In this document: positions 3,940 through 28,296 of the stretch, in pieces
Layout of the letters: each line of letters opens with the position of its first letter
Numbering within the stretch: position 1 is the first letter of the stretch
NCBI GenBank assembly: GCA_034003955.1
Contig: JAVEXO010000012.1
Location: forward strand, 337 to 64,336
Direction: 5' to 3'
Source: Spirochaetia bacterium
GTDB lineage: Bacteria; Spirochaetota; Spirochaetia; Treponematales; UBA12059
DNA length: 64,000 nt
The notes under the pieces: model-generated
Databases searched by the model: none
The model's input: only the letters and a program-made list of their open reading frames with translations
Told to the model about the DNA's origin: nothing
Position numbers and translations under genes: made by a program

Positions 3940-4012
<73 letters not shown>

Positions 4013-23598: not shown

Positions 23599-23645
23599 GG
23601 ATAGTCATCAAAAACCATTCTGAAAAGGCTCATTCAATAGAATAA

Positions 23646-23750
23646 ACGAGGAGAATAAGAGAATACGAGGCAAGAAAGAGGGGATTTGAAGGATAATTCC
23701 GTAAAAAGCCTTCTCTTTTAAGTCTCTTTATCTCTTGTACTCTTTGTTAT
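23646..23750 (+). repeat. Purine-arm/pyrimidine-arm element in the kdd leader (family member 1)
   Basis: GA-rich arm ACGAGGAGAATAAGAGAATACGAGGCAAGAAAGAGGGG (23646-23685) and CT-rich arm CCTTCTCTTTTAAGTCTCTTTATCTCTTGTACTCTTTGTT (23709-23750). The arms are imperfect reverse complements and end 12 nt before the SD GAGGAGG. Confidence 0.7.
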
Positions 23751-23772
23751 TATTATTTCACGAGGAGGTACT

Positions 23773-24813
23773 ATGGCTAAAGGATGCAAGTACGGCACCC
23801 ACCGCGTCATCGAACCGGTGGGAGCCATGCCACAGACGGCGCAGCGCCTGGACAATGACATGTCTAAGGTCTACGACAACGAGATTCTGTTGGACGTGAT
23901 CGCGCTCAACGTCGATTCTGCCAGCTTCACCCAGATAGAGGAAGAAGCGGGGCACGATGTAGACAAGATTGGCAAGAAGATCATGGAGATCGTGGGTGCC
24001 AGGGGCAAGCAGCAGAATCCGGTAACCGGCTCTGGCGGCATGTTCATAGGCAAGGTGGTCAGGATAGGATCGGACCTCAAGGACAGAGACCTCAAGGTGG
24101 GCGACAAGATTGCCAGCCTCGTGTCCCTCTCTCTTACCCCCCTCAAGATCAACAAGATAGTAAAGGTGATGCCAGAGGTTGACCGCGTGCTCATAGACGG
24201 GCAGGCCATACTCTTTGAATCAGGCATCTATGCCAAGCTGCCAGACGACATGGACGAGGGTCTTGCACTCGCCGCCCTCGATGTGGCCGGAGCACCCGCG
24301 CAGACAGCCAAGCTTGTAAAGCCAGGCGACAGCGTGCTTATTCTGGGTGCCGGTGGTAAATCAGGGCTCATGTGCTGCTACGAGGCGATGAAGAGGGTAG
24401 GTCCCACAGGCCGCGTCATAGCCAACATCCGTAGCGAGAAGTACGTAAAGCCACTCACAGAGATGCATCTGTGCCATGAGATAGTGTTTGCCGACGCCGG
24501 CAAGCCCGTCGACATGCTCAATGCGGTGCTCAAGGCCAACAACGGTAAGGAAGTGGACATAGTCATAAACTGCGTCAACATCCAGGGTACCGAGATGTCG
24601 AGCATCCTGCCTGTGCGTGATAACGGCATAGTCTATTTCTTCAGCATGGCTACCAGTTTTACCCGCGCCGCATTAGGAGCCGAAGGTATTGGCAAGGACG
24701 TGCTCATGATTATAGGCAACGGCTATACCAAGGACCACGCCGAGATAACCCTGTGGGAGCTCAGAGAGAACGCTCAGCTTCGCAAGTACTTTGAAGAGCA
24801 GTACGTAAAGTAA
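23773..24813 (+). CDS. kdd: L-erythro-3,5-diaminohexanoate dehydrogenase
   Basis: 346 aa. N-terminus MAKGCKYGTHRVIEPVGAMPQTAQRLDN and a GAGGKSG nucleotide loop, as I recall for Kdd. Context with kce/kamA/kamDE. Confidence 0.85.
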   Translation: MAKGCKYGTHRVIEPVGAMPQTAQRLDNDMSKVYDNEILLDVIALNVDSASFTQIEEEAGHDVDKIGKKIMEIVGARGKQQNPVTGSGGMFIGKVVRIGSDLKDRDLKVGDKIASLVSLSLTPLKINKIVKVMPEVDRVLIDGQAILFESGIYAKLPDDMDEGLALAALDVAGAPAQTAKLVKPGDSVLILGAGGKSGLMCCYEAMKRVGPTGRVIANIRSEKYVKPLTEMHLCHEIVFADAGKPVDMLNAVLKANNGKEVDIVINCVNIQGTEMSSILPVRDNGIVYFFSMATSFTRAALGAEGIGKDVLMIIGNGYTKDHAEITLWELRENAQLRKYFEEQYVK

Positions 24814-24851
24814 CAAGACATCGTGTAGAGTTGGGAGAGTAGCGAGGCGAT

Positions 24852-25248
24852 GGGAGGACGGCAAGCCGGGTTGCGCAAGCGCGCGATTGGCCGGCGGGGG
24901 CAGTCCGTCTCCCGGTAATTATGCGGCGTTCTGCCGGTAAGGATCAGGCCTACGCATACAAAACGTGAGAAGACGGTTAGCCGTCTCTCGCCCCGGGGGC
25001 TCCCCGTCCCCGGCGCGGCGAGCGTAAACGGCGTAGGATATGCCTGCGACGAGTTGACGCTTGCCGGAACGTATCGGCAGCCACCCCATAAGGGGTTGGA
25101 GGATGGACGAGACCATCCATACCGATCTTATGTTTTCCATTGTTTCTGTTTGTTTTGATTGTTGACCGAGGAACGAAGACTGGGGCGACAGGGTTTTAAA
25201 GGTTACGTTGAGTGGCACTCTGCGTGTCCCTTAAAACCCTGTCGCCCC
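24852..25248 (+). other. Non-coding, highly structured GC-rich spacer between kdd and kce (candidate cis-regulatory or processed RNA)
   Basis: No ORF of 60 aa or more on the operon strand. Helices: GGGAGGACGG/CCGTCTCCC (24852-24913); CAGGCCTACGC/GCGTAGG..GCCTG (24945-25046) enclosing GAGAAGACGG-TTAG-CCGTCTCTC and CTCGCC...GGCGAG; CCACCCC-ATAA-GGGGTTGG (25081-25099); GGATGG-ACGAGA-CCATCC (25101-25118); perfect 18-bp stem 25182-25199/25231-25248. Confidence 0.4.
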
Positions 25249-25287
25249 GCCATCGATCGTTACCTACCTACTTTAAGGAGGGCATAC

Positions 25288-26115
25288 ATGGCTCTTGACG
25301 GCAAGATAGTGATAACATGCGCGTGTACCGGCGCAGAGACGACGGTAGCCCAGAACCCGGCGCTTCCAATAACCCCTGATCAGGTGGCCAGGACGGCGGA
25401 AGAGTGCAGGGCTGCGGGTGCCGCCATCCTGCATCTGCATGTGAGGGACGATAAGGGCATGGCTACCCAGAGCGTAGCCAGGTTCAAGGAGGCCATAGAG
25501 GCCATCCGCAAGAAGACAGATATCGTCATTGAGATAACAACAGGTGGAGCCGTCGGCGACACGGCAGAGGAACGCCTGCGTCCAGTCAAGGAACTGCAGC
25601 CAGAGATGGCATCGCTCGACTGTGGCACCGTTAACTTCGGTGACGAGTACATAGTCAACGATCTGCCAACGATGCGGGCATTTGCAGCAGAGTTCAAGCG
25701 GCTCAAGGTTAGGGCCACGCTTGAATGTTTTGACCTGGGACATGTCTACGCAAGCCATTACCTCCTAAAGGAAGGCCTCATAGAGGCTCCATTACACTAT
25801 GGCTTCGTACTCAATGTGCCTGGTGCCGTACCGTACAGCGTCGAGAACCTGTCGGCCTTCATCAAGGCCATACCTGCTGGAGCCGATTTTACCGTGATGG
25901 GCATAGGCCGCTCGTCGCTTCCTGCCCAGTTTGGGGCCATAGCCAACTCTGGGTGGATTCGCGTTGGCTTTGAGGACAACGTATTCTTTAGCAAGGGAGT
26001 GCTTGCCAAGAGCAACGCCGAGTTAGTAGAGCGGGCCGTGCGCATATCCCACGAAGCCGGCTTAAAACCAGCCACGCCCGATGATGTCCGAAGCTACCTG
26101 AGACTAAGAGGCTGA
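25288..26115 (+). CDS. kce: 3-keto-5-aminohexanoate cleavage enzyme (BKACE/DUF849 family)
   Basis: Start at MALDGKIVITCACTGAETT (AAGGAGG RBS). TIM-barrel BKACE hallmarks (ILHLHVRD, EITTGG). Operon context. Confidence 0.85.
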   Translation: MALDGKIVITCACTGAETTVAQNPALPITPDQVARTAEECRAAGAAILHLHVRDDKGMATQSVARFKEAIEAIRKKTDIVIEITTGGAVGDTAEERLRPVKELQPEMASLDCGTVNFGDEYIVNDLPTMRAFAAEFKRLKVRATLECFDLGHVYASHYLLKEGLIEAPLHYGFVLNVPGAVPYSVENLSAFIKAIPAGADFTVMGIGRSSLPAQFGAIANSGWIRVGFEDNVFFSKGVLAKSNAELVERAVRISHEAGLKPATPDDVRSYLRLRG

Positions 26116-26372
26116 TAGAGGAAGACTTAAGGAAGAGGATAAGAGAAGAAGAGTAAAGAAAGAGGGAAGAGGGAGATGAGGAGCAGTGATTATGATCTGC
26201 TCTGTCCGGGCTCTTGTCCTCTTGTTCTCTTTGTCGATTTATTAGATGAGGTTTGGTTTAGGAAGACTGATGTAGATGTAGAAATTAGAGTTAAGAGTTC
26301 ATCAAGAGAAGGCCTGCTGAGAGATTCCTCTCGTTCCTTTCTCTTGTCCTCTTATTCTCTTTGTTAATCTTT
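26114..26372 (+). repeat. Intercistronic purine-arm/pyrimidine-arm element, copy A (two modules)
   Basis: GA arm 26114-26185 (GATAGAGGAAGACTTAAGGAAGAGGATAAGAG...), CT arm 26197-26236 (CTGCTCTGTCCGGGCTCTTGTCCTCTTGTTCTCTTTGTCG), second GA part 26236-26328, second CT arm 26329-26372. Long identical blocks are shared with copy B. Confidence 0.85.
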
Positions 26373-26387
26373 TATAGGAGGCTTACT

Positions 26388-27683
26388 ATGCATACTTATC
26401 CGTCTTACGATTACAAGCGCATTCCGCTGTATAAAGATGTGACGCCCGAGCAGTGGAACGACTGGCACTGGCAGATGAAGAACAACATCAAGGACGTAGA
26501 GACGCTGGCAAAGGTCGTCCCTCTGACACAGAAGGACAAGGACGGCGTGATAGAGGTGCTCAAGGTGTTCCGCATGGCCATAACGCCATACTACGCCTCG
26601 CTGATAGACCCGGAGAATCCAGGCTGCCCGGTCAGGCTTCAGGCTGTCCCGCGCCTGCCTGAGACGCATTTCGACGAGAGCGACCAGGACGATCCGCTTC
26701 ATGAAGACTCAGACAGCCCGGTTCCAGGCCTTACACACCGCTACCCAGACAGGGTGCTGCTCTTGGTCACCCATATATGCTCCATGAACTGCCGTCACTG
26801 TACACGCAGGCGCATCGTTGGTGAAGAAGACGCCAACATGAACGAAGAGTATATTGACGCCGCCATAGAGTATATAAAGAAGACACCAATAGTCAGGGAC
26901 GTGCTCATATCCGGTGGAGACCCCCTTGTACTGTCAGATGAGAAGCTAGAGAGCATCATAAAGAAGATACGTGCCATACCACACGTGGAGATAATCCGCA
27001 TAGGAACGCGCACGCCAGTGGTCATGCCCCAGCGTATAACAGACAAGCTTGTTACCATGCTCAAGCAGTACCACCCCATCTATGTCAACACGCACTTCAA
27101 CCATCCCAAGGAGATTACAGCCGAGTCTCGCGAGGCTTGCCGCAAGCTAGCCGACGCTGGCATACCACTTGGAAACCAGAGCGTGCTCCTGCGCGATGTA
27201 AACGATTGCCCGGTTCTTATGAAGAAGCTCGTGCAGAAGCTACTGACCATACGCGTAAAGCCGTACTACATCTACCAGTGTGACCTGTCACTTGGCATCA
27301 GCCACTTCCGCACTACCGTCTCCAAGGGCATAGAGATAATAGAGAACCTGCGTGGCCACACCTCTGGCATGGCAGTACCCACATTCGTCATAGACGCGCC
27401 GGGAGGCGGCGGCAAGACGCCAGTGATGCCAGACTACATGATATCAAGTAACGACAAGCGTGTGATACTGCGCAACTATGAGGGCGTTATCACCACATAC
27501 GATGAACCTACCGGTTATCACGAGGACTGTGGCAAATGCCGTATATGCTTCGACGAACCTCAGCTCAACGCCACCTGTGGCGTAGCAAGGCTTCTATCTG
27601 GTGACGAGAAGACCCTGGAACCAAAAAACCTGGTCAGAGCCGCCCGTGGCACCAACGCCTTCTCCCCAAGAAAGAAGAAGTAA
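26388..27683 (+). CDS. kamA: L-lysine 2,3-aminomutase (radical SAM, PLP)
   Basis: CxxxCxxC cluster motif CSMNCRHCTRR and conserved KamA blocks (ITPYYASLIDPENP, LISGGDPL). Start at MHTYPSYDY after AGGAGG. Confidence 0.95.
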   Translation: MHTYPSYDYKRIPLYKDVTPEQWNDWHWQMKNNIKDVETLAKVVPLTQKDKDGVIEVLKVFRMAITPYYASLIDPENPGCPVRLQAVPRLPETHFDESDQDDPLHEDSDSPVPGLTHRYPDRVLLLVTHICSMNCRHCTRRRIVGEEDANMNEEYIDAAIEYIKKTPIVRDVLISGGDPLVLSDEKLESIIKKIRAIPHVEIIRIGTRTPVVMPQRITDKLVTMLKQYHPIYVNTHFNHPKEITAESREACRKLADAGIPLGNQSVLLRDVNDCPVLMKKLVQKLLTIRVKPYYIYQCDLSLGISHFRTTVSKGIEIIENLRGHTSGMAVPTFVIDAPGGGGKTPVMPDYMISSNDKRVILRNYEGVITTYDEPTGYHEDCGKCRICFDEPQLNATCGVARLLSGDEKTLEPKNLVRAARGTNAFSPRKKK

Positions 27684-27699
27684 TACTAGTAAAGATAAC

Positions 27700-28296
27700 G
27701 AACAGGAGAGGGCTGATAGAGGAAGACTAAGGAAGAGGATTAGGGACAGTGTTTTGTATTGCTCTGTCCGGGCTCTTGTCCTCTTGTTCTCTTTGTTGAT
27801 TTATTGGAAGAAGCTTAGTTTAGGAAGATTAACGAAGAGGGTGGAAAGAGTGGAGAGGGATAGTTTGAGCGATCGAATAATTGGATGCGCTATCGCCGTA
27901 CACCGAGAACTTGGACCCGGGCTCTTAGAGTCTATATACGAGGAAGCTTTATGTCTGGAATTATCGGACAATGGGTTATCCTATAATAGGCAGCTAGAAC
28001 TTCCTGTTTCCTATAAAGGGATATGCCTTAATGGTTCTTTCAGGATCGATATGCTGGTAGAAGGATCTATCGTACTCGAGCTCAAATGCGTCGAGGCTCT
28101 CTTGCCGGTACACAAGGCTCAGTTGCGTTCTTGTTTACTCTTGGGTGGCTGGAATACTGGTCTGCTTCTTAATTTCAAAACCGCCATCCTCAAGAACGGT
28201 ATATACAGGATATCTATATGATGCACATGGCTCATCTTAAGTTATTTTTAGTGATTCCCTCTTTCTCGGCTCTTATTCTCTTATTCTCTTTGTTCA
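27700..28296 (+). repeat. Intercistronic purine-arm/pyrimidine-arm element, copy B, split by an inserted ORF
   Basis: 27716-27745 matches 26113-26143. 27760-27825 matches 26197-26262 (TGCTCTGTCCGGGCTCTTGTCCTCTTGTTCTCTTTGT-GATTTATT...TTTAGGAAGA). The terminal CT arm 28255-28296 matches 26323-26368. The GxxExxY ORF lies between them. Confidence 0.85.
27841..28221 (+). CDS. GxxExxY-family protein (PD-(D/E)XK nuclease-like fold)
   Basis: Diagnostic motif GPGLLESIYEEAL and family-typical length of about 125 aa (SDRIIGCAIAVHRELGPGLLESIYEEALCLEL...). Start is ambiguous: GTG 27841, GTG 27850 or TTG 27865. The upstream part of track ORF 27601 is the C-terminus of kamA plus repeat read-through. Confidence 0.75.
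   Translation: MERVERDSLSDRIIGCAIAVHRELGPGLLESIYEEALCLELSDNGLSYNRQLELPVSYKGICLNGSFRIDMLVEGSIVLELKCVEALLPVHKAQLRSCLLLGGWNTGLLLNFKTAILKNGIYRISI

What the first reader, a model, noticed from the sequence alone, without database searches (positions are those of the whole stretch)
24814..25287. 475-nt non-coding, densely structured spacer between kdd and kce
Seen in sequence:
- The kdd stop (24813) and the kce start (25288, strong AAGGAGG) are separated by 475 nt with no plausible ORF on the operon strand. The 99-aa minus-strand ORF has implausible composition.
- The GC content is locally higher, and nested helices can be read off directly: 24852-24913; a multi-branch domain closed by 24945-24955/25031-25046 that contains two GC-rich hairpins; two adjacent small hairpins at 25081-25118; and a perfect 18-bp stem (GGGGCGACAGGGTTTTAA/TTAAAACCCTGTCGCCCC, 25182-25248) ending about 25 nt before the kce RBS.
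- No T-tract follows any of these stems, so they are not simple terminators.
- The element is unrelated to the GA/CT elements in the other spacers of the same operon.

Inference: this is a candidate cis-acting RNA (riboswitch-like sensor, processing/stability domain or antiterminator target), an embedded sRNA, or a decayed remnant. The kal step gene is missing from the locus, but I could find no translatable trace of it here.
Basis: partly seen in the sequence, partly recalled or inferred. Interest (0 to 1): 0.6.

Follow-up and report, generated by a model that had tools for sequence, protein, structure and literature searches.

The report
New structured RNA in lysine-fermentation operon
The gap between two lysine-fermentation genes holds a previously undescribed, about 280-base folded RNA that is conserved in uncultured spirochaetes and probably works as a built-in regulator of the genes after it, though what it senses is unknown.

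Summary
The kdd-kce spacer (24814-25287) has no gene or pseudogene and folds far better than shuffled sequence.

It is composite:
- **Conserved RNA.** Positions 24846-25128 (+) form an RNA of about 283 nt with roughly ten helices and about 37 invariant bases. It occurs in 40 related loci (33 distinct sequences) from spirochaete genomes and metagenomes. It always lies on the operon strand, directly after kdd and before kat or kce.
- **Support for the fold.** Helices P1, P2, P4-P10 show compensatory changes (74-84% of cells paired, against 35-52% in slid controls). No Rfam 15 family matches.
- **Lineage-specific tail.** Positions 25127-25287 hold a pyrimidine-rich tract and a long hairpin (25182-25248). 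This tail exists only in relatives that lack kat. There the hairpin is kept through compensatory changes.

In relatives with kat (HemL-like 3-aminobutyryl-CoA aminotransferase), the RNA ends 14-27 nt before the kat start codon. The window's lineage therefore lost kat but kept its leader RNA. A rough Kdd tree suggests this happened at least four times.

Best reading: a new riboswitch-like cis-regulatory leader. The ligand and the read-out are unknown. The decayed-gene, repeat-element and terminator readings are rejected.

The parts
23773..24813 (+). kdd (L-erythro-3,5-diaminohexanoate dehydrogenase), the gene directly upstream of the RNA
   Evidence: NCBIfam NF052381, E = 1e-78. kdd lies immediately upstream of the RNA in every locus where that flank is present.
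24846..25128 (+). Conserved structured RNA: 5' domain, central domain and 3' three-way junction
   Evidence: About 76% DNA identity to L001-L005, and 90-100% identity in core blocks even in distant loci. 33 distinct sequences are aligned. About 37 columns are invariant. G-U pairs outnumber A-C mismatches 187 to 73, which favours the + strand. No Rfam match.
24852..24913 (+). 5' domain. P1 is 24852-24861/24905-24913 with G24857 bulged. P2 is 24865-24869/24891-24895. P2a is a hairpin at 24872-24876/24881-24885. Conserved junction strands are C-R-A (24862-24864) and GGGGGCAGU (24896-24904).
   Evidence: P1 pairs in 88% of cells and 6 of its 9 pairs show compensatory changes. P2 pairs in 100% and 86% of cells for its two segments. 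The whole domain is 84% paired, against 40-49% when partners are slid. G24896-G24900 are invariant.
24923..24937 (+). P3, a variable hairpin (about 24924-24927/24933-24936)
   Evidence: Predicted by RNAalifold with some compensatory changes, but 3-6 of 19 sequences break each pair. Weakly supported.
24967..24989 (+). P4 hairpin (24967-24976/24981-24989, A24971 bulged). The loop is UUAG here and a GNRA tetraloop in most relatives.
   Evidence: 7 of 9 pairs show compensatory changes. Only 65% of cells pair in the MAFFT alignment, because divergent members carry P4 stems of different length. Loops GAAA, GAGA, GCAA and GUAA are seen.
24993..25019 (+). P5 hairpin (24993-25000/25006-25013, loop UCCCC at 25001-25005) plus the invariant 3' stretch CGCGGC. 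This is the most conserved block of the RNA.
   Evidence: 100% of cells pair and 3 pairs show compensatory changes. The block is identical, or differs by 1-5 substitutions, in every member. It served as the 18-base search pattern.
25022..25060 (+). P10 (25022-25029/25053-25060) enclosing the P9 hairpin (25032-25037/25043-25048), with a conserved GACGA junction
   Evidence: In the model-fitted alignment, P10 pairs in 74% of cells with compensatory changes at 7 of 7 pairs. P9 pairs in 69% with changes at 4 of 4 pairs.
25073..25126 (+). 3' three-way junction. P6 is 25073-25077/25122-25126. P7 is 25081-25087/25092-25099. P8 is 25101-25106/25113-25118 with the near-invariant loop ACGAGA (25107-25112).
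   Evidence: P8 pairs in 96% of cells, P6 in 81% and P7 in 75%. The 3' half of the RNA (P6-P10) is 80% paired, against 35-48% when slid. It has 133 doubly changed cells, against 54.5 +/- 6 in shuffles. P6 covaries between AUCGG/CCGAU, GGUGG/CCACC and GGAGG/CCUCC.
25127..25181 (+). Pyrimidine-rich linker. It includes UAUGUUUUCC (25129-25138), a candidate anti-Shine-Dalgarno strand.
   Evidence: A U-rich tract with a UUUCC core follows the RNA in the window's own kat-less clade (window, L001, L003-L005, L081, L112, L113, L124, L195); L002 and more distant kat-less members (L010, L013, L039, L190) lack it. In folds of the tail alone, the kce SD pairs with this tract at P >= 0.45 in 11 of 15 loci. 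This is not seen when the whole spacer is folded with the supported helices enforced, so it is a hypothesis only.
25182..25248 (+). Long hairpin (33-nt arms, the outer 18 bp perfect), specific to kat-less lineages
   Evidence: arms unique in the window. Homologous hairpins sit at the same place in L001-L004, L081, L112, L113, L124 and L195, and 14 of 21 pairs keep pairing through changes on both sides. It is absent from kat-containing loci.
25275..26115 (+). Shine-Dalgarno sequence AAGGAGGG (25275-25282) and kce (25288-26115), the gene now downstream of the RNA
   Evidence: NCBIfam NF052387, E = 7e-108; sequence read.

Best explanation
**What it is.** Positions 24846-25128 encode, on the operon strand, a previously undescribed structured RNA of about 283 nt. 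It has a 5' hairpin domain (P1/P2), a central pair of hairpins (P4/P5) and a 3' domain (P9/P10 plus the three-way junction P6/P7/P8). Its stems covary and its junctions and loops are near-invariant.

**Origin.** It is the inherited 5' leader of kat, the HemL-like 3-aminobutyryl-CoA aminotransferase. In relatives kat sits between kdd and kce, 14-27 nt after the RNA. The window's lineage lost kat. The RNA was kept and now precedes kce, joined to it by a newer tail: a pyrimidine tract and a long, structurally conserved hairpin.

**Most likely mechanism (inferred, not shown).** The RNA acts in cis as a riboswitch-like sensor inside the lysine-fermentation transcript. A ligand or factor stabilises the fold. 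Its last helix (P6) lies next to the ribosome-binding region, so the fold sets how well the downstream gene is expressed: kat in the ancestral layout, kce here. In kat-less genomes the pyrimidine tract may pair with the kce Shine-Dalgarno sequence across the long hairpin.

**Shown versus inferred.**
- Shown: the structure, its conservation, its strand, its fixed genomic context and the absence of coding signal.
- Inferred: cis-regulation, the existence of a ligand and the translational read-out.
For: **Conservation.**
- DNA identity is about 76% over 300 nt to the nearest relatives.
- The core blocks are 90-100% identical in loci whose Kce is only 74-76% identical.

**Covariation.**
- 5' domain: 84% of cells paired, against 40-49% when slid.
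- Central domain: 79%, against 44-50%.
- 3' domain: 74% in the MAFFT alignment and 80% in the model-fitted alignment, against 35-52%. 23 of 29 pairs carry compensatory changes, and 0 of 500 shuffles reach the observed score.

**Strand.** G-U pairs outnumber A-C mismatches 187 to 73.

**Context.**
- All 19 genome loci and all 21 true metagenome hits have the RNA in the same orientation, after kdd and before kat or kce.
- The covariance model finds nothing elsewhere in 677 kb of related loci.

**Adjacency to the start site.** In kat-containing loci, 14-27 nt holding the SD separate P6 from the start codon. In L093 the RNA abuts kce with an 11-nt tail.

**Retention after kat loss.** The RNA was kept in at least four lineages on the Kdd tree. 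L151 is an intermediate, with kat cut to 39 codons.

**Tail.** The tail hairpin is conserved through compensatory changes.

**Not coding.**

**Not a known RNA family.**. Literature searches found no report of an RNA element in these operons.
Against: - No ligand, transcript end or expression data exist.
- The read-out is not established. SD sequestration by the pyrimidine tract appears only when the tail is folded alone. It disappears when the full spacer is folded with the supported helices enforced; SD pairing probability is then 0.05-0.36.
- SD and anti-SD are invariant, so covariation cannot test that pairing.
- About 280 nt is large for a riboswitch aptamer.
- The RNA lies inside an operon rather than at its 5' end.
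- The expression platform differs completely between kat-containing and kat-less loci. That also fits a function independent of the downstream gene, such as processing, stability or a stand-alone RNA.
- The model-fitted alignment leans towards the modelled structure.
Confidence: 0.5

Rival explanations
1. A constitutive processing or stability element. The folded RNA, and in kat-less genomes the long hairpin, act as an intercistronic RNase target or as a 5'/3' stabiliser. This uncouples the amount of kdd message from that of kat/kce/kam. No ligand is sensed.
For: The RNA lies inside the operon, not at its start. Its downstream tail is completely different in kat-containing and kat-less loci while the RNA itself is unchanged. 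The long, near-perfect hairpin of 20-35 bp is kept by compensatory change. By general knowledge, such a hairpin is the kind of duplex RNase III cuts or that blocks exonucleases.
Against: A simple stabiliser or cleavage site does not need ten helices and about 37 invariant unpaired or junction bases. Known intercistronic stabilisers are plain hairpins. The kat-containing loci have no long hairpin at all.
Confidence: 0.2
2. A stand-alone functional RNA carried in the operon transcript: a trans-acting small RNA, or a self-cleaving or otherwise catalytic RNA. Its function does not depend on the gene that follows.
For: Its size and complexity resemble large orphan structured RNAs and ribozymes. It was retained after kat was lost, with different downstream sequence each time. 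GNRA tetraloops cap P4 in most members. By general knowledge such loops are typical of RNAs with tertiary docking.
Against: It is strictly tied to one intergenic position in one operon (40 of 40 loci). No promoter-like or terminator-like site of its own was found. No known ribozyme family matches. In kat-containing loci it ends within 14-27 nt of a start codon, which is leader-like.
Confidence: 0.12
3. A protein-binding leader. An RNA-binding regulator, a pathway enzyme or a ribosomal factor binds the invariant loops (for example GGACGAGACC or GCUCCCCGU) and controls translation or antitermination of the downstream genes.
For: Invariant hairpin loops on covarying stems (P5, P8) are what protein-recognised hairpins look like. 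Two adjacent small hairpins (P7, P8) superficially recall ANTAR targets in the eut operon (resemblance from memory).
Against: No RNA-binding regulator gene is seen in the operon or its immediate neighbours. The ANTAR loop consensus is not met, and no terminator follows.
Confidence: 0.1
4. A decayed remnant of a lost gene (kat or kal), or of a mobile or repeat element, with no present function.
For: The spacer is long because kat was lost here. L151 shows a truncated kat. Other spirochaete loci carry GA/CT inverted-repeat elements or PDDEXK_3 cassettes in the same spacer.
Against: tblastn with Kat finds nothing in the spacer or the window. No six-frame translation matches any NCBIfam or Pfam family. 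The RNA is also present upstream of intact kat. The stems covary and no frame is conserved. No second copy exists in the window. The tail hairpin is maintained by compensatory change.
Confidence: 0.03

Closest known systems
Riboswitch leaders that control translation or transcription of metabolic genes, e.g. the lysine riboswitch (L-box, RF00168) and the cobalamin riboswitch (RF00174)
   Same: It is a cis-located, same-strand, multi-helix RNA with covarying stems and invariant junction and loop bases. It is tied to one pathway, and its last helix lies next to the ribosome-binding site of the next gene. The pathway uses lysine and B12, the ligands of these two classes.
   Different: No match to either covariance model on either strand, even at E <= 10. 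It lies inside the operon after kdd, not at the 5' end. It is larger (about 283 nt), its ligand is unknown and it is restricted to one group of spirochaetes.
Large orphan structured bacterial RNAs (OLE, GOLLD, ROOL, HEARO, raiA) and the glmS ribozyme
   Same: Size, number of helices, GNRA-capped helices and many invariant unpaired positions. These suggest a tertiary fold rather than a simple hairpin signal.
   Different: Those (except glmS) are stand-alone genes found in many contexts. This RNA occupies a single intergenic position in a single operon. None of their models matches.
ANTAR (EutV-type) two-hairpin antiterminator targets inside the ethanolamine-utilisation operon
   Same: A regulatory RNA placed between genes inside a B12-dependent catabolic operon, with two adjacent short hairpins (P7, P8).
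   Different: The P8 loop is ACGAGA (A, not G, at loop position 4). The P7 loop varies in length. No overlapping terminator exists, and the element is five times larger.
Intercistronic stabiliser or processing hairpins and REP/MITE palindromes
   Same: The 25182-25248 hairpin is a long near-perfect palindrome between two genes of an operon.
   Different: It is single-copy in the window. It is inherited at the same position and maintained by compensatory changes. The conserved 283-nt RNA upstream of it is not a palindrome.

Membership tests
Lysine riboswitch (Rfam RF00168) | Match to the family covariance model (five-helix junction with its conserved core) | tested here: not met
   cmscan found no hit at gathering score over the whole window, and none at E <= 10 in 24700-25400 on either strand. 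Nothing was found in 14 relatives at gathering score or in five relatives (four of them not among those 14) at E <= 1.
Cobalamin riboswitch (Rfam RF00174 and clan) | Match to the covariance model, including the B12-box core | tested here: not met
   Same searches. The GAGACC in the P8 loop resembles part of the B12 box only from memory.
T-box leader (Rfam RF00230) | Specifier stem plus T-box antiterminator or sequestrator sequence, detected by the model | tested here: not met
   No hit.
ANTAR target RNA | Two adjacent hairpins, each with a hexaloop carrying A at position 1 and G at position 4, the second overlapping a terminator | tested here: not met
   The P8 loop ACGAGA has A at position 4. 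The P7 loop is 4 nt here and variable in relatives. No terminator-like site is present.
Intrinsic terminator or attenuator | G+C-rich hairpin followed directly by a U tract | tested here: not met
   The terminator scan finds no site in 24814-25287. The U-rich tract starts after the branched P6 junction and precedes the long hairpin rather than following it.
Riboswitch (generic kind) | Conserved aptamer-like fold supported by covariation | tested here: met
Riboswitch (generic kind) | Constant position upstream of, and on the same strand as, genes of one pathway | tested here: met
   40 of 40 loci lie between kdd and kat/kce. There are no other hits in 677 kb.
Riboswitch (generic kind) | Expression platform with mutually exclusive pairings that hide or expose the SD or a terminator | tested here: inconclusive
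   SD pairs with the pyrimidine tract in tail-only folds but not in the constrained full-length fold. The P6 3' strand is CCUCC-like in many kat-containing members, but no covariation test is possible.
Riboswitch (generic kind) | Direct, selective ligand binding that changes the fold | not testable with these tools
   Needs in-line probing, ITC or reporter assays.
Pseudogene of kat or kal | Residual protein-level similarity in some reading frame | tested here: not met
   tblastn with Kat gives a best E of 0.34 on the spacer alone and 1.6 on the whole window. The ten longest six-frame translations match no NCBIfam or Pfam model, the Kal/Kce fusion model included.
REP, MITE or IS end | Multiple copies in the genome, or terminal inverted repeats shared with other insertions | tested here: not met
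   No second copy of any part of the spacer occurs in the 64-kb window. The rest of the genome could not be searched.

The most novel reading that the evidence does not exclude
This would be a new riboswitch class whose ligand is an intermediate or cofactor of anaerobic lysine fermentation, such as beta-lysine, 3,5-diaminohexanoate, 3-keto-5-aminohexanoate, 3-aminobutyryl-CoA or another CoA thioester. I know of no reported RNA sensor for this pathway (my own knowledge; literature searches found none). It has an unusually large three-domain aptamer placed inside the operon, so that the second half of the pathway is switched on only when the first half delivers substrate.
Probability: 0.3. Interest if true: 0.8.

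Novelty: new member of a known kind. Interest (0 to 1): 0.62.

Why it matters
- **A gap in known regulation.** Lysine fermentation to butyrate, acetate and ammonia is a major amino-acid sink in anaerobic digesters, sediments and guts. The literature searches made here found no RNA regulator described for it.
- **A concrete target.** A large, strongly conserved RNA wedged between kdd and kat/kce gives a testable handle on how these uncultured spirochaetes control the pathway.
- **Possible new ligand class.** If it binds a metabolite, it would add a ligand class to riboswitch biology, possibly a beta-amino acid or an acyl-CoA. It would also provide a natural sensor for that compound.
- **Evolution of a leader RNA.** The same RNA works in front of kat in some genomes. 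In others it works in front of kce, behind a newly evolved platform. This shows a leader RNA outliving the gene it first preceded.
- **A metabolic puzzle.** The operon in this window lacks both kal and kat.

Tried and rejected
1. **Known RNA families.** Rfam 15 was searched on both strands, at gathering and permissive thresholds, in the window and in 18 different relatives. Only spurious miRNA-type hits to the long palindrome and sub-threshold chance hits appeared.
2. **Decayed kat or kal.** Kat tblastn and six-frame profile scans gave nothing.
3. **Coding small ORF.** Open frames are common in this GC-rich sequence, but none is conserved relative to the invariant block.
4. **Repeat or mobile element.** There is no second copy in the window. 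The core pattern has no hit in viral contigs.
It pairs only at background level in relatives.
6. **RNAalifold's long-range pairing of GGC (block A) with GCGCG after P5.** The covarying positions are better explained by P1.
7. **A three-base-pair P4b (GCC/GGC) flanking P5.** Only 66% of cells pair and the register is inconsistent, so it is left open.
8. **A spacer-closing helix between the kdd stop region and the kce start region (translational coupling).** It is predicted for the window and L001. It is not above shuffled controls in 15 other loci.
9. **Divergent copies of the RNA in the other spirochaete or Holophagales kdd-kat spacers.** None was found. Those spacers hold GA/CT inverted repeats, other GC-rich sequence, or are short.
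10. **The first long-range pairing script** timed out and was rerun in reduced form.

Full report
**Setting.** The window carries a lysine-fermentation operon on the + strand:
- kdd, 23773-24813
- kce, 25288-26115
- kamA, 26361-27683
- a small PDDEXK_3/GxxExxY gene
- kamB, kamC, kamD and kamE, running to 33207
- an NhaC-type transporter
- the two subunits of a 3-oxoacid CoA-transferase

The nearest relatives are uncultured spirochaetes, labelled Treponemataceae or Rectinemataceae MAGs, with Kce 85-90% identical. kdd is the first gene of the operon. The gene before it runs the other way and starts at about 23290.

- The spacer is 474 nt and has no + strand ORF of 40 aa or more.
- It is locally GC-richer than its flanks.
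- It folds about six standard deviations better than dinucleotide shuffles, on either strand.
- The 18-bp perfect stem extends to 33-nt arms and is unique in the window.
- No terminator-like site lies in the spacer, and no promoter-like site was found on the + strand.

**What relatives show.** I fetched 80 loci encoding Kce relatives and measured the kdd-kce gap in each. The gaps fall into three classes:
- 20-100 nt
- 430-555 nt, the class of the window
- 1300-2260 nt

The long class holds a gene of 420-440 aa between kdd and kce. That gene is a class-III, HemL-like aminotransferase. By family and position it corresponds to Kat, the 3-aminobutyryl-CoA aminotransferase that replaces Kal in the variant lysine pathway (PMC3149608). 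I did not align it to the published Kat sequence, so this identification is an inference. The window has no kat or kal anywhere.

**A conserved RNA.** blastn of the spacer against these loci shows about 76% identity over positions 20-338 with L001-L005. A core block is 90-100% identical even in loci that contain kat, where it lies upstream of kat. Two signature blocks recur with compensatory stem changes:
- CCGGGGGCUCCCCGUCCCCGGCGCGGCG
- GGAUGGACGAGACCAUCC

An 18-base degenerate pattern from the first block was scanned over metagenome contigs and returned 120 stretches. Of these, 21 also carry the other blocks. All 21 lie between kdd and kat or kce, in the same orientation. The remaining stretches are chance matches in GC-rich DNA. 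The pattern has no hit in viral contigs. In total there are 33 distinct sequences.

**Structure.** The alignments give the model below, in window coordinates:

| Helix | 5' strand | 3' strand | Notes |
|---|---|---|---|
| P1 | 24852-61 | 24905-13 | |
| P2 | 24865-69 | 24891-95 | |
| P2a | 24872-76 | 24881-85 | hairpin |
| P3 | about 24924-27 | 24933-36 | weak |
| P4 | 24967-76 | 24981-89 | GNRA loop in most relatives |
| P5 | 24993-25000 | 25006-13 | |
| P10 | 25022-29 | 25053-60 | |
| P9 | 25032-37 | 25043-48 | |
| P6 | 25073-77 | 25122-26 | |
| P7 | 25081-87 | 25092-99 | |
| P8 | 25101-06 | 25113-18 | loop ACGAGA |

Pair counts for each part of the RNA:

| Part | Cells paired | Slid controls | Further measures |
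|---|---|---|---|
| 5' domain | 84% | 40-49% | 42 doubly changed cells, against 13.6 in shuffles |
| Central domain | 79% | 44-50% | P5 pairs in 100% of cells |
| 3' domain, MAFFT alignment | 74% | 37-52% | |
| 3' domain, model-fitted alignment | 80% | 35-48% | 23 of 29 pairs compensated; 0 of 500 shuffles reach the score |

The model-fitted alignment leans towards the model, but the plain MAFFT counts point the same way. The invariant bases sit in junctions and loops:
- GGCGAGCC
- GGGGGCAGU
- the UCCCC loop
- CGCGGCG
- GGACGAGACC

The G run at 24896-24900 and the C run in the P5 loop could pair as a pseudoknot. Both runs are invariant, so this cannot be tested by covariation.

G-U pairs outnumber A-C mismatches 187 to 73, which points to the + strand. 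Element lengths vary between 223 and 312 nt in steps that are not multiples of three. No reading frame anchored on the invariant block stays open across members.

**Not a known family.** Rfam 15 gives nothing for the window or for 18 different relatives, apart from spurious or sub-threshold hits. Literature searches found no RNA element reported for these operons.

**Two architectures.**
- In kat-containing loci, the 3' strand of P6 is followed by only 14-27 nt, holding the Shine-Dalgarno sequence and then the kat start codon.
- In the window's own kat-less clade, the same RNA is followed by a U-rich tract with a UUUCC core, then a very stable hairpin of 20-35 bp, then the kce ribosome-binding site. 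More distant kat-less members (L010, L013, L039, L190) have other tails.
- The hairpin sequences differ between lineages but are homologous. 14 of 21 pairs are maintained through changes on both sides.
- The tail has no sequence match beyond a 23-nt stretch in L004.
- In L093 the RNA abuts kce directly. In L151 kat is truncated to 39 codons.

A rough neighbour-joining tree of Kdd places kat-less, RNA-bearing loci in at least four separate positions among kat-bearing ones. It also shows the RNA only in spirochaete clades. The Holophagales and Acidobacteria loci lack it. Several spirochaete loci instead carry GA/CT inverted repeats or a PDDEXK_3 cassette in this spacer. So the 475-nt spacer is an old kat leader RNA that survived loss of kat, plus a younger tail.

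**How it probably works.**
- Shown: the fold, its strand, its conservation, its fixed place and its leader-like position next to a start site.
- Inferred: it is a cis-acting, riboswitch-like sensor.

Its complexity and invariant unpaired bases argue for a specific tertiary fold that binds something. Its retention in front of whichever gene follows argues that it controls the downstream part of the operon rather than kat alone. In many kat-containing members the P6 strands read GGAGG/CCUCC, just upstream of the real SD. This suggests competition for the SD.

In kat-less members, the tail folded alone pairs the SD with the pyrimidine tract in 11 of 15 loci. For the window, folding the whole spacer with the supported helices enforced leaves the SD mostly unpaired. 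The alternative long-range helix predicted in that fold is not conserved. The read-out is therefore open, and I put the riboswitch-like reading at about 0.5.

The rivals are as follows:
- a ligand-independent processing or stability element (0.2)
- a stand-alone or catalytic RNA (0.12)
- a protein-binding leader (0.1)
- a functionless remnant (0.03)

**Novelty and value.** This is a new RNA family of a known kind: a structured cis-leader and orphan riboswitch candidate. It is unusually large, sits inside a catabolic operon, and belongs to a pathway with no RNA regulator found in the literature searches made here. The most novel reading still open is a sensor for a lysine-fermentation intermediate or acyl-CoA.

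Noticed in passing
window 27850-28221; L006 2008-2448; L071 3554-3931; L021 3447-3914; L019 3504-3994: Small GxxExxY/PDDEXK_3 (PF13366) genes sit in different intergenic spacers of these operons: kamA-kamB in the window, kat-kce in L006, L071 and L021, and kdd-kce in L019. In L019 the gene is flanked by long GA-rich/CT-rich inverted repeats (CCACAGAGGCACAGAG... / ...CTCTGTGCCTCTGTGG). This looks like a mobile cassette.
   Followed up: partly
window 26127-26164 / 26330-26367 and about 23630-23760; L015, L017, L026, L027 kdd-kat spacers: GA-rich/CT-rich inverted repeats without a gene occupy other spacers of the operon. In the window the arms are 38 nt at 79% complementarity, and a GA-then-CT stretch lies upstream of kdd. 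In some relatives they occupy the kdd-kat spacer in place of the structured RNA. They may be MITE-like derivatives of the PDDEXK_3 cassette.
   Followed up: partly
whole window (1-64000): Neither kal nor kat is present in the window, although the rest of the lysine-fermentation set and a CoA-transferase are. How 3-aminobutyryl-CoA is handled in this organism is open. The gene may lie elsewhere in the genome.
   Followed up: partly
L151 1240-1356 and 1592 onward: kat is reduced to its first 39 codons and is followed directly by kce, while the sister locus L152 has kat matching through residue 130, where the contig ends. This is an apparent snapshot of kat loss, though an assembly artefact is not excluded.
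   Followed up: no
L093 (motif at 171, kce from about 312): Here the structured RNA abuts kce with only an 11-nt tail. kat is absent, and so are the pyrimidine tract and long hairpin found in the window's clade. This is a third architecture.
   Followed up: no
L011 3557-4000 and L168: These two kat-less loci keep the 5' and central domains of the RNA. They lack a recognisable P8/GGACGAGACC block, and the 3'-domain model does not hit them. They may carry a truncated or remodelled variant.
   Followed up: no
window 3940-4012: A tRNA gene is the only Rfam hit at gathering score in the 64-kb window.
   Followed up: no
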